A DNA stretch of 64,000 nt from Diadema antillarum (lineage: Eukaryota). Position numbers: made by a program. The stretch is from positions 1 to 64,000 of the forward strand of contig NW_027272223.1 in NCBI RefSeq assembly GCF_040938485.1, read 5' to 3'. Positions 3,001 through 48,978 of this stretch are shown one piece after another; position 1 is the first letter of the stretch, and the number at the start of each line of letters is the position of its first letter.

Positions 3001-6000
3001 TTCATTAATATTGGTATAGTCTACACCCAACATTGGTATATCATAGCGAAGAACTCTTTTCAGCAAAAGCCAAGATCCAAGACCGATTTAAGAGGATGAA
3101 GTGTAAGTTAGAAGTCTGTGATGCTCTCCGTCTATGGTATCTGATGATTACTCTTCACCTAGTGTTCGCTCTTGTTCCAGGCGTGGATGCAGCTGTCGAG
3201 CAATACAGACGACAGGTCACATTGGAGGTGAGGGTACTTTGGTTTGATTTGATTTGATTGATTTGGTTTGATTTTCGATTTCTTCTCCAAAGTATTATAA
3301 AACTGAAATACGCATATAGATAAATCATTAAAGATAATACGAGAGGAATCAATCTAATTGTGTTTATTCACATAGTTAATAACATGTAAGCAAACTTCAC
3401 AATAATTGACTTGTGTCGGCGTATATACTTGGTTCTCGTCCTAACTCTACAGGTAACCATGCATGTGTAATATCTAAATTCAGTATCGTATTTTTAAAGA
3501 CCATAATATCTCGTTGGGCTATTGTATACAGCGTTCTGAATTCTAAATGGAATAAATTCACTATCATTCTGATATGTGTAATATACTCCAAACGCATTAA
3601 AATCTATAAGTTTCTGATCCTGTTTGTTGTAATAATTCCTCCACAATATGCCCTTGGTCAATGTGTGCCTCTCGAACGTCTAATTGTCTTTAACATCAAT
3701 AGCGCTCACTGAAGGGGCAAGCAATTTCAATTCATTTACACTTTCTTTTCTTCCAACATAAGGTCGCACATAATACAAAGTATACCCTATTTTTGAAAAA
3801 TTATACTGTTTAACCATTTTTTAAGAAGTACATGTCATAGAGTATGTTACAAAATGATGTATGAATGATTGTGATGATTATAATGATGAGAGGAACAATG
3901 CCTACTGTGCAATAGTGAAAAAAAAAGATAATAATGGAGAAGAGTAAATCTATACCTCTGTAAGACGTGGATCACTCGAAAAGCAATAGATGTCATGCCA
4001 ACGATTATCCAAAATGTATCTATGAACATTTAGTATAGGTTATACGCCAGTAATAACTGATAAAGGGTAATATAAAAGCATAATACTATTTAGAGCTGTT
4101 GGACAATACTTTTTCTTTCTTTTTTTTTAAGAACAGAGGAAATACATTATACCTAAAATGAGATAACAACGTTACTCCACAGACGCTATTCATTGAGCAG
4201 TGTGCACCATAAAATACATCGACAAAAATAATACTTGCACAGATTATAAGAACACACAGTTAAACACACATACCCCCCCCCAAAAAAAAAAACAGCAACA
4301 AACAAACAAACAAACAAAAAGCACTTATAAACACAAGACGCAATATTGTAACAAGAAGAAAGAACATTTTTATATCACAACACAACGAAGAACAACGTGA
4401 AAAAAAGTCAGGAGCAGAGAAGAAAGAAATTGTGGCTTGTGAACATCCCATTCCGTTGTCACGGAGATGCAACATAGTGTCGTCAGACACTGACCACTGA
4501 ACAATTTGACCAGTTGGTTGCACACACTCAGGCCAGAACTTCCAAAAAAGCTCGTGCCCCAATTTGACCTGCCTCCGCTCAGGTCAACGAAGCAATCCCG
4601 ATCTTTCCAAGCTCAGAAAGGTGATCATAAACAGTGCTCCCGTGAACGGCGTTTTGAATCAACGTTTCAAAACACTGATTCTGAACATAAACACACCCTT
4701 ACATAGACTGTAGTCAGATCTCGGTTGTGATAGATCTTTGTCCACCAAGTGGTCGTTCAAGTCCGTGAGTACACCTGTCAGACAGTGATCAAGATAAAAA
4801 GACCTCATTCCGGAATAGTTCCAGGACAATTACCCCCTGGACAAGAAATTACCCCATATCCTTCCTCTGACCCTAACCCTCTTAATCCCGATCCTGAACC
4901 TAATCCTGACCCTAACCCAAACCCTAATCATATATGATCCTGAACCTAATCCTGTTTTCATTGAGCCTGTGGTGGAAAATGTTCGCTTGCGACGGGTAAA
5001 AAAAGAAAAAAAAATGAACCGTTTGATTGCTCTATAATAGAGCCATGATGATATATATACTTATGGGAGGCCAAAGGAATTTATTAGAATATATCTTTCT
5101 CCTTTTTTTTTTGGGGGGGGGGGGGCTTATTTATTGAAACTTACATTTCAGATCGAATAACTTCAAGAACCTTATAGTAGATCATACCTGTACCAGAAAA
5201 AAGAAGCAAATTTTAAGAGATCATGTGTGCAAATATTAACGCTGTAAAGGCCTACATAGCCAAGTCATCAACAGGCTGACGATGGCTGGTTATCTTTTGC
5301 GAAAATCATTTTGCCATTAGTATAGTCTTGGTTTGAAATATGGAGATTTCATTATCGAGATCATTGTGACTCAAAATCTTAATGAATTGAAAGTATACAC
5401 TCGATACATTGCGCTATTACTATGCATGCAGTAGGTCGATTGAGGATCGATCTCGCGCGAGCAGTTGAGGAACTGCTTCATGTTGTCGAATCCAATTTGA
5501 AGGAGTACGCCCTCTTGAGTGCTGATTATTACAGTGATCGCAACGAAGATCGTTTTCATGGATACTGAGTATAAACTTTCACTTTCATACACAGATAAAA
5601 TGATCATGAACGATAATATGTTGTTTACAGAACCAGCGCATACGGTAAAGACTCCAGCTTTTCCGCTTGGTCGTTTTCTCAAAATCTCCCGCTTTAACGT
5701 TTAGCTTCCTCACAAAATATGAAAAGCGAATAGAAAAGTTTGCACGTATTATACGCAAACGCTCACTTTCATGTCAGATAAAGATAGTATACAAATGATG
5801 CACAGGATAGAGTGCGTTAGTGTAGGCGTAAAGTGCACTCGAGGGTATTTACAATTGTGAAACATGCACGAGGCGAAGCCGAGTGCATGTTGCACTATAC
5901 ATTGTAAATGCCCGAGAGTGAGCTACGCCTCCACTAACGCCACGAAATAATCCTGTGCATCATTTGTTTTATAAAATGGGTCGAAAATTCGAAAACTAAC

Positions 6001-48200: not shown

Positions 48201-48978
48201 CTCATGTCGGAAAGCAGCCTTGAAATTATATAACATTGACTTTATTTCACACACACTTACAGGTTACTGTGATGGCATTAGTGCTGGCAGTGTGGAAGTG
48301 GGGTTCTGGGTCGGAGCTTGCAGTGGTTATGGAAACTATGACTGCTACACCGGCTGGAACAGTGCGAGCCACATTATGATAGAAGAGGTCACACCCTCAC
48401 CATATGGCTAGGGTATCCATTAACATGACCAAGCATACCAAAAGTACACCACCATTGTCAGTCTGACGATGATTGAATATACATGTATGTATGNNNNNNN
48501 NNNNNNNNNNNNNNNNNNNNNNNNNNNNNNNNNNNNNNNNNNNNNNNNNNNNNNNNNNNNNNNNNNNNNNNNNNNNNNNNNNNNNNNNNNNNNNNNNNNN
48601 NNNNNNNNNNNNNNNNNNNNNNNNNNNNNNNNNNNNNNNNNNNNNNNNNNNNNNNNNNNNNNNNNNNNNNNNNNNNNNNNNNGAACACCCTTATGCTCAA
48701 CATGGACATTGACATCAAAGAGTCATCAAGGTATATAAAAGAATGCATGCTGATAATAGTAGATTTGTGTCATGAAATACACAGTACTTATACTTTTTAT
48801 TTCAAAATACTTTCTGTACCTGAGATTCCTACATTTTGGAGGCTCTTGTGTATATAGAAGCCATTTTCATGTCATTTTCTACTTGATGCATTTCTAGAAA
48901 TAGTGTTTCCTTCCAGTAGATCATCAGTAGTCATATATACTTGCTGTCTGTAAAGCTCAGAACCATGCTCTCTGTACA

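What the first reader, a model, noticed from the sequence alone, without database searches (positions are those of the whole stretch)
3096..48411. Four-gene tandem expansion of compact CTHRC1-like secreted proteins under purifying selection
Seen: four colinear genes with identical exon 2/3/4 lengths (150/208/149 nt). Exon 3 of copy 1 versus copy 3 differs at about 36 of 208 nt by hand count but at only 4 residues (W/Y, T/Y, N/D, M/L), so the proteins are being conserved. Known: CTHRC1 is single-copy in mammals and acts in Wnt/PCP signalling, matrix remodelling and wound repair, and lineage-specific expansions occur in some invertebrates. Inference: a set of signal + short collagen + globular head paralogues could be sub-functionalised in development or regeneration, or act like defence collagens (the C1q/collectin architecture).
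[Added by the scan's program, not by the reader: the finding's places include an assembly gap (unread letters, written N; its length is only estimated) at 13954 to 14083. Whether the letters on both sides are continuous or in frame is not known: test that first.]
Basis: partly seen in the sequence, partly recalled or inferred. Interest (0 to 1): 0.65.

Follow-up and report, generated by a model that had tools for sequence, protein, structure and literature searches.

The report
Four tandem CTHRC1-like sea-urchin genes
A sea-urchin genome stretch carries four neighbouring copies of a small secreted collagen-like gene of the CTHRC1 family, three intact and one with a broken start; the array is real but ordinary and already annotated.

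Summary
Four + strand genes have exon 2/3/4 lengths of 150/208/149 nt, and all introns are GT-AG. Exon 3 of copy 1 and copy 3 differs at 36 of 208 nt and 4 residues. Exons 2-4 tile Pfam CTHRC1_C. dN/dS is 0.02-0.07. The exon translations are exact substrings of four Diadema antillarum RefSeq "CTHRC1-like" proteins, so the genes are already annotated. D. setosum has one orthologue of each. Echinoderm-specific Cthrc1 diversification is published (PMC7058181).

New details:
- The N gap (13954-14083) lies in intron 1 of copy 2, with colinear sequence on both sides, so no reading frame crosses it.
- Exon 1 of copy 2 has a TAA at codon 5, so only three copies encode a signal peptide as assembled.
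- Copies 1-3 are exon-wise mosaics shaped by gene conversion. This weakens dN/dS as proof that each copy is functional.
- The head is predicted to be a TNF/C1q-like jelly roll and a homotrimer.

A defence or sub-functionalised role remains untested. Interest is low.

The parts
3096..3227 (+). Copy 1 exon 1 (44 codons): start codon, hydrophobic signal-like segment and linker ending ...QYRRQVTLE; donor GTGAGG
   Evidence: KD(9) maximum 2.53. The RefSeq model XP_071478015 is marked partial and covers this exon only from F24.
6889..7038 (+). Copy 1 exon 2 (150 nt, phase 0-0): Cys, 7 G-X-Y triplets, and the first 23 profile positions of the CTHRC1_C domain
   Evidence: Pfam Collagen 23.9 bits and CTHRC1_C profile positions 1-23.
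8548..8755 (+). Copy 1 exon 3 (208 nt, ends in phase 1): core of the head domain
   Evidence: CTHRC1_C profile positions 26-93, E 5.2e-19, 69.3 bits.
9836..9984 (+). Copy 1 exon 4 (149 nt including the stop): C-terminal part of the head
   Evidence: CTHRC1_C profile positions 99-137, E 1.3e-12.
11733..11864 (+). Copy 2 exon 1 homologue, 94.7% identical to exon 1 of copy 3 but with an in-frame TAA at codon 5 (11745-11747)
   Evidence: Of the 7 nt differences from copy 3, 6 fall in codons whose residue changes.
13954..14083 (.). Assembly gap (130 N) inside intron 1 of copy 2, next to a simple repeat; not filled
   Evidence: One search gives the coordinates. One search shows colinear matches to intron 1 of copy 1 on both sides.
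17479..17628 (+). Copy 2 exon 2 (150 nt). An ATG 6 nt upstream, within the acceptor region, is where RefSeq starts its 170-aa model
17875..18082 (+). Copy 2 exon 3 (208 nt); 8 of 207 nt differ from copy 1
18375..18523 (+). Copy 2 exon 4 (149 nt); the copy-2-specific Ala (DCATGW) is shared with the D. setosum orthologue
28362..28493 (+). Copy 3 exon 1 (44 codons, intact)
   Evidence: Exact substring of XP_071478020.
35949..36098 (+). Copy 3 exon 2 (150 nt)
37421..37628 (+). Copy 3 exon 3 (208 nt). It is the most divergent exon among copies 1-3 (36-38 of 207 nt) and carries the copy-3-specific residues Y111, Y119 and D138
38807..38955 (+). Copy 3 exon 4 (149 nt); 8 of 144 nt differ from copy 1
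42970..43077 (+). Copy 4 exon 1 (36 codons from the third in-frame ATG): divergent signal-like peptide that again ends ...YRREVVLE; donor GTAAGA
   Evidence: KD(9) maximum 3.24. Exact substring of XP_071478022.
45480..45629 (+). Copy 4 exon 2 (150 nt)
47413..47620 (+). Copy 4 exon 3 (208 nt)
48263..48411 (+). Copy 4 exon 4 (149 nt including the stop). A second N gap (48494-48682) starts about 80 nt downstream
11034..11732 (+). Upstream flank of copy 2. Together with exon 1 and the first 239 nt of intron 1 (to 12103) it forms one block of 81% identity with the copy 3 locus (27651-28748). Copy 1 shares only about 80 nt upstream of its ATG, and no match to the copy 4 upstream region was found

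Best explanation
The window is a piece of the Diadema antillarum (long-spined sea urchin) genome. It carries a head-to-tail array of four paralogous genes of the metazoan CTHRC1 family, all from one echinoderm subfamily.

Gene layout. Exon 1 encodes a signal-type peptide and a short linker. Exon 2 encodes a Cys, a very short collagen stretch of 7 G-X-Y triplets, and the first strand of the head. Exons 3 and 4 encode the rest of the roughly 135-residue CTHRC1_C head.

Product (inferred). The mature protein of about 170-180 aa is secreted. It forms a trimer through a TNF/C1q-like jelly-roll head plus a short triple helix. By analogy with vertebrate CTHRC1, it acts outside the cell as a matrix or signalling modulator.

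Evolution. The four-gene array is older than the D. antillarum / D. setosum split. It is kept under strong purifying selection. Copies 1-3 also exchange exon-sized tracts by gene conversion, while copy 4 and exon 3 of copy 3 stay apart.

Copy 2. As assembled, it has lost its start region through a TAA at codon 5. It is therefore probably a recent pseudogene, or is expressed only as a form without a signal peptide.

Shown: gene structure, family membership, substitution pattern, mosaicism, and orthologues in D. setosum.
Inferred: secretion, trimer formation, function, and the status of copy 2.
For: Structure. Exons are 150/208/149 nt and all introns are GT-AG in the four copies. There are exactly four copies of each exon in the window.

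Family.
- Of the 5 exon peptides scanned out of 16 (the four exons of copy 1 and exon 1 of copy 4), the copy 1 exons tile Pfam CTHRC1_C in order: exon 2 on profile positions 1-23, exon 3 on 26-93 (69.3 bits) and exon 4 on 99-137 (48.6 bits), against a cut-off of 27 bits.
- The exon 3 search gave 11 proteins with E<=0.001 among 22 candidates. All 11 carry PF25815. Eight are named CTHRC1(-like) from echinoderms and three are unnamed.
- A profile search gave 599 proteins at E<=1e-5 among 8000 scored candidates, from sponges, cnidarians, ambulacrarians and vertebrates.

Source. The exon translations are exact substrings of XP_071478015 (copy 1, exons 2-4), XP_071478026 (copy 2, exons 2-4), XP_071478020 (copy 3, exons 1-4) and XP_071478022 (copy 4, exons 1-4). 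All four sit on one 230,014-bp D. antillarum contig.

Age of the array.
- D. setosum has XP_072164290, XP_072164289, XP_072164287 and XP_072164286 on one chromosome-size contig.
- They share the paralogue-specific residues: Y111, Y119, D138 for copy 3; A192 for copy 2; and nine of the twelve copy-4-specific residues, T50, E63, T71, T74, A83, H102, S106, L157, D167, E175 and G212 among them.
- In a 52-row tree copy 4 pairs with its orthologue at 100/98. Copies 1-3 pair with theirs weakly, at 68-74 ultrafast bootstrap.

Selection. Pooled NG86 dN/dS is 0.022-0.059 for the five pairs with an estimable dS, with bootstrap upper bounds <=0.122. ML omega is 0.034, 0.038 and 0.068 for exons 2, 3 and 4, and 2dlnL against omega=1 is 80, 121 and 56.

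Gene conversion.
- Per-exon dS is heterogeneous. For copy 1 versus copy 3 it is 0.16 in exon 2, 1.37 in exon 3 and 0.29 in exon 4 (Fisher p 8e-6).
- Per-exon ML topologies disagree.
- Homology between copies 1 and 3 stops within 5-24 nt of the exon 2 and exon 4 borders.
- 15 of the 16 residue differences between copies 1-3 and their D. setosum orthologues fall on 7 sites that recur among paralogues.

Fold. An AF2 model of the D. setosum copy-1 orthologue has pLDDT 82.8 and a nine-strand beta head. Foldseek against PDB gave 63 matches at E<=0.001. The top ones are trimeric jelly rolls: Chlamydia Pgp3 C-terminal domain, TMt 0.59-0.61; BC2L-C N-terminal lectin, 0.59; the 'tumor necrosis factor-like lectin PLTL', 0.62; 4-1BBL, 0.45; TNF-alpha, 0.43. 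This agrees with the C1q-like modelling of Leclere et al. 2020 (PMC7058181; abstract and passages seen).

Trimer. Three copies of residues 45-212 scored 0.93, against a best control of 0.36.
- The mark was reached by 21 of 30 proteins solved as pairs of one chain and by 0 of 23 solved as single chains.
- The runs agree in at least 96% of contacts, and the partner's pLDDT is at least 89.
- The calibration used two copies, not three.
- On eukaryotes the mark was reached by 17 of 29 (animals 7 of 16), but by only 1 of the 7 with no older solved relative, so the pass may be from memory.
- The alignment I supplied was not used.
Against: - Copy 2 cannot make a secreted protein from its exon 1 as assembled, because codon 5 is TAA. 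With conversion among copies 1-3, its intact exons 2-4 and low dN/dS are not proof of function.
- No expression evidence was available for any copy.
- Signal peptides were judged only from hydropathy and a predicted N-terminal helix, not with a dedicated predictor.
- Seven G-X-Y triplets is very short for a stable triple helix (my own knowledge). The Pfam Collagen hit is below its cut-off, 23.9 against 27.2 bits.
- None of the four has an N-X-S/T sequon in the mature region, unlike the 'secreted glycoprotein' description of vertebrate CTHRC1.
- C1q, collagen VIII and collagen X heads were not among the Foldseek rows listed. TM-scores are moderate and sequence identity is 8-13%.
- No C1q Pfam hit appeared at E<=1.
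- The trimer pass may reflect memory of solved TNF/C1q trimers.
- Orthologue pairing of copies 1-3 has weak branch support. In that tree asteroid and holothurian sequences sit unexpectedly beside the Diadema genes.
- The assembly gap means that the physical link between exon 1 and exons 2-4 of copy 2 is inferred from colinearity only.
Confidence: 0.85

Rival explanations
1. Copy 2, and possibly others, is a dead gene. Its downstream exons look conserved only because functional neighbours keep overwriting them by gene conversion. On this reading the locus holds three working genes plus a converted pseudogene.
For: - Codon 5 of exon 1 of copy 2 is TAA.
- 6 of the 7 nt differences from exon 1 of copy 3 change the residue. 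Exon 1 of copy 2 differs from the D. setosum copy-2 orthologue at 8 of 44 residues, while exon 1 of copy 3 differs from that same protein at only 3.
- RefSeq models of the copy-2 type on both D. antillarum contigs start at 'MQ' just before exon 2 and lack a signal peptide.
- There is mosaic and conversion evidence among copies 1-3.
Against: - Exons 2-4 of copy 2 have no frameshift or stop, and all splice sites are intact.
- Copy 2 keeps its own residue, A192, which the intact 212-aa D. setosum orthologue shares.
- Its divergence from its orthologue (6 of 168 residues) is no higher than that of copy 3 (6 of 168).
- A single-base error or a polymorphism cannot be excluded from one assembly.
Confidence: 0.5
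2. One reading: the four proteins are defence collagens. That is, they are trimeric pattern-recognition lectins of the coelomic fluid, analogous to C1q, collectins and ficolins, and have diversified to recognise different targets.
For: - The architecture is signal peptide, short collagen stretch and trimeric jelly-roll head.
- Structural neighbours include two bacterial TNF-like lectins, BC2L-C N-terminal domain and PLTL.
- In a hemichordate cell atlas, a cthr-marked cell cluster is described alongside putative immune populations (PMC13554239, two passages seen).
- In the head, 14 of the 17 paralogue-variable positions lie outside the predicted trimer interface.
Against: - dN/dS of 0.02-0.07 and only 5-18 differences in 168 residues between copies. 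This is the opposite of the diversifying pattern usual for recognition families.
- Seven triplets is too short for the long stalks that bundle C1q and collectins, and the stretch has no Lys of the kind that binds their proteases (the motif is recalled, not tested).
- No C1q, lectin or fibrinogen Pfam hit appeared.
- The excess of variable sites outside the interface is not significant (p 0.11).
- No expression or binding data are available.
Confidence: 0.1
3. The four copies are an assembly artefact: haplotypes or collapsed and expanded repeats of one or two real genes.
For: - The D. antillarum assembly annotated by NCBI is 1.73 Gbp against a k-mer haploid estimate of 703 Mb, with 84.4% duplicated BUSCOs (bioRxiv 10.64898/2026.05.24.727502, passages seen).
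- A second, near-identical set of four proteins (0-1 differences in 168 residues) sits on another contig.
- Two N gaps lie in or next to the array.
Against: - That redundancy explains the second contig, not the four copies within this one.
- The copies here differ at 33-115 of 501 coding nt.
- Their intron lengths are quite different: intron 2 is 246 to 1783 nt, and intron 1 is 2402 to 7455 nt.
- They carry different insertions, such as a LINE in intron 1 of copy 3.
- Each has its own orthologue in the independent D. setosum assembly.
Confidence: 0.02

Closest known systems
Echinoderm CTHRC1-like genes in RefSeq (D. antillarum XP_071478015/026/020/022; D. setosum XP_072164286/287/289/290; Strongylocentrotus and Lytechinus paralogues)
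   Same: The window's exon translations are identical to the four D. antillarum records. They are 96-99% identical to the D. setosum orthologues over the 168-aa mature core, that is 2-6 differences. All fall in one echinoderm clade supported at 100/99.
   Different: Nothing essential; these are the same genes. The window adds three details. Exon 1 of copy 1 is open from its ATG, although the RefSeq model is marked partial. The copy 2 model lacks a signal peptide because of a TAA in exon 1. Copies 1-3 are conversion mosaics. Camarodont urchins form their own paralogue groups.
Vertebrate CTHRC1 (single-copy gene; Wnt/PCP and TGF-beta/BMP links, injury-induced)
   Same: Both have a signal peptide, a short collagen stretch and a CTHRC1_C head. 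The D. setosum copy-1 orthologue and six vertebrate proteins are 42-44% identical. An intron lies near the 5' end of the head-coding region, and Leclere et al. 2020 describe that position as conserved across metazoans (passage seen).
   Different: - The urchin genes are four tandem copies; the vertebrate gene is single.
- They have 7 G-X-Y triplets, against 12 in the human protein (12 is recalled).
- They are 204-212 aa, against 229-250 aa for the vertebrate hits listed.
- They have no N-X-S/T sequon.
- Vertebrates sit on a very long separate branch (length 2.15), so there is no 1:1 orthology.
- The FZD6 neighbourhood described for gnathostomes was not looked for here.
Tandem Cthrc1 arrays of cnidarians (Clytia, Nematostella, Acropora; Leclere et al. 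2020, PMC7058181)
   Same: Closely related paralogues lie side by side on one scaffold and are explained by tandem duplication (passages seen). The same paper reports clade-specific diversification for echinoderms at 100% bootstrap (section 9).
   Different: Cnidarian paralogues vary widely in collagen length, 4-54 repeats, and in sequence. The Diadema copies keep identical exon lengths and 89-97% protein identity, with concerted evolution. The paper's copy numbers per species are in supplementary table S3, which I could not see.
C1q/TNF superfamily heads (C1q, collagen VIII/X NC1, TNF ligands, bacterial TNF-like lectins)
   Same: The head is predicted to be a jelly-roll beta sandwich and a trimer. 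In C1q and collagens VIII and X the head also follows a collagen stretch. The three C1q chains are likewise encoded by neighbouring genes (recalled).
   Different: No C1q-domain match by sequence (Pfam). Structural matches are at 8-13% identity with TMt of at most 0.62, and C1q itself was not among the rows listed. This is a resemblance of fold and assembly, not family membership.

Membership tests
CTHRC1 family (Cthrc1 sensu Leclere et al. 2020: collagen repeat plus Cthrc1 C-terminal domain) | CTHRC1 C-terminal domain (Pfam PF25815) | tested here: met
   Exon by exon for copy 1: exon 2 covers profile positions 1-23 (21.2 bits, a fragment below the 27-bit cut-off), exon 3 covers 26-93 (69.3 bits) and exon 4 covers 99-137 (48.6 bits). 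Copies 2-4 were not scanned themselves, but their exon 2-4 peptides are 84-99% identical to those of copy 1. All 11 database hits carry PF25815.
CTHRC1 family | Short collagen triple-helix (G-X-Y) stretch N-terminal to the head | tested here: met
   Seven uninterrupted G-X-Y triplets in each of the four copies. The Pfam Collagen match is 23.9 bits, under its 27.2 cut-off, because the stretch is so short. Leclere et al. report 4-54 repeats in the family (passage seen).
CTHRC1 family | N-terminal signal peptide (secreted protein) | tested here: inconclusive
   The exon 1 peptides of all four copies have hydrophobic cores, with KD(9) maxima of 2.2-3.2. The AF2 model shows an N-terminal helix at residues 5-25. 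No signal-peptide predictor was available. In copy 2 the feature is not met as assembled, because codon 5 is TAA.
CTHRC1 family | Conserved intron at the 5' end of the head-coding region | tested here: inconclusive
   Intron 2 falls between profile positions 23 and 26 of CTHRC1_C in all four copies. This fits the paper's statement. The exact position is given in its supplementary fig. S3, which I could not see.
CTHRC1 family | Placement inside the metazoan CTHRC1 tree | tested here: met
   In the 52-row ML tree the four proteins fall in an echinoderm clade (100/99). That clade is nested among ambulacrarian, vertebrate, cnidarian and sponge CTHRC1 proteins.
CTHRC1 family | Trimer formation | tested here: inconclusive
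   Prediction only. The homotrimer of the D. setosum copy-1 orthologue scored 0.93 against a best control of 0.36, with the caveats stated. No experiment was possible.
C1q-domain / defence-collagen proteins (C1q, collectins, ficolins) | C1q (PF00386), C-type lectin or fibrinogen head recognisable by sequence | tested here: not met
   No such Pfam family at E<=1 for the exon peptides of copy 1.
C1q-domain / defence-collagen proteins | Jelly-roll trimeric head (fold level) | tested here: met
   Foldseek hits to TNF-like trimers, TMt 0.43-0.62, E down to 5.8e-6. Predicted trimer. This is a fold resemblance only.
C1q-domain / defence-collagen proteins | Long collagen stalk that bundles trimers and binds associated proteases | tested here: not met
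   Only 21 collagen residues, GSPGPPGPPGPPGEQGEPGAP, with no Lys. The requirement for a Lys-containing protease site is recalled, not tested.
C1q-domain / defence-collagen proteins | Binding of microbial or altered-self patterns | not testable with these tools
   Needs recombinant protein plus glycan or microbe binding assays.

The most novel reading that the evidence does not exclude
The array may work like the C1q A/B/C gene cluster. On this reading the neighbouring paralogues are subunits that co-assemble into mixed trimers. Gene conversion keeps the collagen stretch and interface exons of copies 1-3 compatible. Exon 3 of copy 3 and the whole of copy 4 are shielded from conversion because they carry distinct outward-facing binding surfaces.

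That would give a combinatorial set of TNF/C1q-like extracellular ligands or lectins from four small genes. The 5'-dead copy 2 would serve only as a conversion donor.

The evidence does not exclude this. The paralogue-specific residues are fixed in both Diadema species, and 14 of the 17 variable head positions lie outside the predicted interface. Nothing shows it either.
Probability: 0.08. Interest if true: 0.5.

Novelty: new member of a known kind. Interest (0 to 1): 0.2.

Why it matters
It matters little beyond annotation. The genes are already in RefSeq under the right family name, and echinoderm-specific multiplication of Cthrc1 is published.

What is useful is modest:
- A clean example of a small tandem family in which purifying selection and exon-limited gene conversion act together. 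It is a caution that low dN/dS between neighbours does not certify each copy.
- A likely recent loss of the signal-peptide exon in one copy of D. antillarum, while D. setosum keeps that copy intact.
- A corrected 5' end for copy 1.

D. antillarum is a keystone reef grazer hit by mass mortalities (abstracts in the listing). If wound-repair or immune roles were ever shown for these proteins, copy-specific markers from this locus would be handy.

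Tried and rejected
- **PDB by sequence.** The exon 3 peptide gave only chance-level matches to ribosomal protein L33, E 0.32-0.38. No solved relative was found by sequence.
- **Alternative first exons.** RefSeq uses other first exons on the other contig. 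I looked for them in the window. Only a weak 12-residue match turned up, 75% at 29139-29174 in intron 1 of copy 3, E 0.003. Nothing was found for the copy-1-type alternative. No substitute signal exon for copy 2 was found, but short exons can be missed and 130 bases are unread.
- **Interface test.** I tested whether paralogue differences avoid the predicted trimer interface. The result was not significant: all residues p 0.51, head only p 0.11.
- **Whole-window scans.** Rfam and ARAGORN found only one tRNA.
- **Saturation.** NG86 dS is saturated for exon 2 against copy 4 and for copy 3 against copy 4 pooled (nan). For those I rely on the bootstrap range and the ML omega.
- **Assembly artefact.** Considered and rejected; see the rivals.
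- **Another collagen family.** Considered and rejected. A C1q-domain protein, collectin or fibrillar collagen fragment would have given a Pfam hit, and none appeared.
- I built no joined, spliced protein from the window's exons and searched with none. Searches were exon by exon.
  - Mapping RNA-seq.
  - Any search of eukaryotic genome DNA. The genome-contig collection holds prokaryotes only and was not used.
  - Metagenome contigs and viral contigs, which are closed.
  - Supplements of PMC7058181 (tables S1-S3, figs S3-S7).

Full report
**What is there.**
- A six-frame scan finds four collagen-type runs of seven G-X-Y triplets on the + strand, at 6901, 17491, 35961 and 45492.
- Self-comparison of the window shows that each belongs to a repeated unit with three or four conserved blocks.
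- Reading the frames and splice sites gives four colinear four-exon genes:
  - copy 1: 3096-3227, 6889-7038, 8548-8755, 9836-9984;
  - copy 2: 11733-11864, 17479-17628, 17875-18082, 18375-18523;
  - copy 3: 28362-28493, 35949-36098, 37421-37628, 38807-38955;
  - copy 4: 42970-43077, 45480-45629, 47413-47620, 48263-48411.
- Exons 2, 3 and 4 are 150, 208 and 149 nt in every copy, and every intron is GT-AG.
- Introns differ greatly in length: intron 1 is 2402-7455 nt and intron 2 is 246-1783 nt.
- tblastn with exon peptides finds exactly four copies of each of exons 2-4. The only other hits at E<=1 are five short ones (E 0.5-0.8) that I take for chance.
Exon 3 of copy 1 and copy 3 differs at 36 of 208 nt and 4 of 69 residues (W/Y, T/Y, N/D, M/L).

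**The assembly gap, tested first.**
- The 130 N at 13954-14083 lie inside intron 1 of copy 2, 2,089 nt after exon 1 and 3,395 nt before exon 2. No reading frame runs across them.
- The left flank is a simple repeat that matches intron 1 of copy 1 at 4868-4925 (89.7%).
- The next matching block on the right (14646-15187) corresponds to copy 1 at 4955-5542.
- All blocks from exon 1 to exon 4 follow in the same order and on the same strand.
- The switch of copy 2 from copy-3-like to copy-1-like sequence happens at about 12103-12124, well left of the gap. It is therefore not a product of the join.
- This supports continuity but does not prove it.
- A second gap (48494-48682) begins about 80 nt after the stop of copy 4.

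**Identity.** I searched exon by exon. I built no joined spliced protein from the window and searched with none.
- Pfam puts the copy 1 exons on the CTHRC1 C-terminal domain in order: exon 2 end on profile positions 1-23, exon 3 on 26-93 (5e-19) and exon 4 on 99-137 (1e-12). The collagen stretch gives a sub-threshold Collagen hit (5 of 16 exon peptides were scanned).
- The exon 3 peptide finds 11 proteins among 22 candidates. All carry that domain, and eight are named CTHRC1(-like) from echinoderms.
- The best hit and its cluster mates are Diadema antillarum RefSeq proteins.
- The window's exon translations are exact substrings of XP_071478015, XP_071478026, XP_071478020 and XP_071478022, all on one 230,014-bp contig.
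- So the window is D. antillarum, not human, and the four genes are already annotated.
- A second, almost identical set (0-1 differences in the 168-aa core) sits on a 4.1-Mb contig.
- The NCBI-annotated assembly is 1.73 Gbp against a 703-Mb haploid estimate, with 84.4% duplicated BUSCOs (bioRxiv 10.64898/2026.05.24.727502, passages seen). That second set is therefore most simply the other haplotype.

**Relatives.**
- D. setosum has four proteins on one chromosome-size contig. They carry the same paralogue-specific residues as copies 1-4.
- In the tree, copy 4 pairs with its orthologue at 100/98, and copies 1-3 pair with theirs at 68-74.
- That tree has 52 named proteins, chosen from the 141 held. 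All unnamed hits and most coral sequences were left out.
- The array therefore predates the split of the two species.
- Camarodont urchins (Strongylocentrotus, Lytechinus) form their own paralogue groups inside the same echinoderm clade (100/99).
- D. antillarum has at least two more distant CTHRC1-like genes elsewhere.
- Leclere et al. 2020 (PMC7058181; abstract, twelve passages and section 9 read) already report that most non-vertebrates have several paralogues. They report tandem duplicates in cnidarians, an echinoderm-specific diversification, and a C1q-like model of the head.
- Their per-species counts and intron figure are in supplements I could not see.
- No paper in the library combines Diadema with 'collagen triple helix repeat'.
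- The searches for Cthrc1 with 'sea urchin' or 'coelomocytes' list nothing whose title or abstract start concerns echinoderm CTHRC1. Of the 15 different papers listed I opened three.

**Selection and conversion.**
- Counts summed over exons 2-4 give NG86 dN/dS of 0.022-0.059, with bootstrap upper limits of at most 0.122.
- Per-exon ML omega is 0.034, 0.038 and 0.068, and omega=1 is rejected (2dlnL 80, 121, 56).
- The history is mosaic, however:
  - Exon 1 and exon 2 are closest between copies 2 and 3 (94.7% identity in exon 1; 6 of 150 nt differ in exon 2).
  - Exon 3 is closest between copies 1 and 2 (8 of 207 nt differ, against 36-38 to copy 3).
  - Exon 4 is closest between copies 1 and 3 (8 of 144 nt differ).
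- Synonymous divergence differs sharply between exons of the same pair (Fisher p 8e-6 and 3e-6).
- Per-exon topologies disagree.
- Similarity between copies 1 and 3 ends within 5-24 nt of the exon borders.
- Against D. setosum, 15 of the 16 residue differences in copies 1-3 fall on seven sites that recur among paralogues. This is the signature of conversion continuing after speciation.
- Copy 4 and exon 3 of copy 3 stay apart.

**Copy 2.**
- Its exon 1 has TAA where copies 1 and 3 have TTA.
- Six of its seven differences from exon 1 of copy 3 change the residue.
- RefSeq models on both contigs start just before exon 2, without a signal peptide.
- The D. setosum orthologue is an intact 212-aa protein.
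- Exons 2-4 of copy 2 are intact. Given conversion, that does not prove function.

**Likely mechanism.**
- An AF2 model of the D. setosum copy-1 orthologue (pLDDT 82.8) shows an N-terminal helix, an extended collagen part and a nine-strand head.
- Foldseek against PDB gives trimeric TNF-like jelly rolls, including two bacterial TNF-like lectins, 4-1BBL and TNF-alpha, with TMt up to 0.62 at 8-13% identity. C1q itself is not in the listed rows.
- A three-copy prediction of residues 45-212 scored 0.93 against a best control of 0.36. The mark was reached by 21 of 30 proteins solved as pairs of one chain and by 0 of 23 solved as single chains. Contacts agree at 96% or more, and the partner's pLDDT is 89 or more.
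- That prediction has caveats. The calibration was for two copies. On animals the mark was reached by 7 of 16. The pass may be from memory.
- The mature core has nine Cys and no N-glycosylation sequon.
- I infer secreted trimers that act in the extracellular matrix or in signalling, as in vertebrates. A lectin-like defence role is possible but is not favoured by the very low dN/dS.

**Verdict.** The feature is real and correctly named. It is an ordinary member of a known kind of expansion. The new details are the broken start of copy 2, concerted evolution among copies 1-3, and a gap that proves harmless to the reading frames.

Noticed in passing
window 29616-33556 (+), inside intron 1 of copy 3; tandem array 34836-35604: An apparently intact non-LTR retrotransposon. 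It has an ORF1-like frame of 280 aa (29616-30458) and an uninterrupted 1037-aa ORF2 (30443-33556) with endonuclease (6e-13) and reverse transcriptase (3e-36) domains. A 109-nt x 7.1 tandem array with 98% matches follows it, just before exon 2 of copy 3. The insertion accounts for much of the 7.5-kb intron.
   Followed up: partly
window 23172-26306 (+), between copies 2 and 3: A degraded relative of that element, split into three frames: endonuclease, reverse transcriptase (9e-38) and a tail. It is 46% identical to the intact ORF2 over 403 aa.
   Followed up: partly
window 18738-19730 (+): An open frame of 330 aa that starts 215 nt after the stop of copy 2. It has a coiled-coil-like middle part and is 31% identical over 118 aa to the ORF1-like frame of the intronic retrotransposon. 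It is probably the ORF1 remnant of another LINE.
   Followed up: partly
window 44864-44938 (-), in intron 1 of copy 4: A tRNA-Thr (anticodon AGT) found by ARAGORN and by Rfam (49.7 bits). I did not determine whether it is a working tRNA gene or a tRNA-derived repeat.
   Followed up: no
window 54522-55199 (-): A 225-aa open frame with a hydrophobic N-terminal segment and a cytochrome b5-like heme/steroid-binding domain (1.4e-5). It looks like an exon of a neighbouring gene on the other strand. The resemblance to neuferricin/MAPR proteins is recalled, not tested.
   Followed up: no
window 48494-48682: A second assembly gap (189 N) that starts about 80 nt after the stop codon of copy 4. It may interrupt that gene's 3' UTR. 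It was not filled.
   Followed up: no
window 3096-3164 (copy 1 exon 1, first 23 codons): The RefSeq protein for copy 1 (XP_071478015) is marked partial and starts at F24. Yet the window has an open exon 1 from an ATG at 3096, and that exon matches the full-length D. setosum orthologue at 39 of 44 residues. The public model could be completed.
   Followed up: yes
window 39818-40010: A 16/32/48-nt tandem array, 73-83% matches, in the spacer between copies 3 and 4.
   Followed up: no
window 11034-12103 versus 27651-28748: Copies 2 and 3 share about 1.1 kb at 81% identity, covering the upstream flank, exon 1 and the start of intron 1. Copy 1 shares only about 80 nt upstream of its ATG, and no match to the copy 4 upstream region was found. 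This suggests different regulation of copies 1 and 4, which was not tested.
   Followed up: partly
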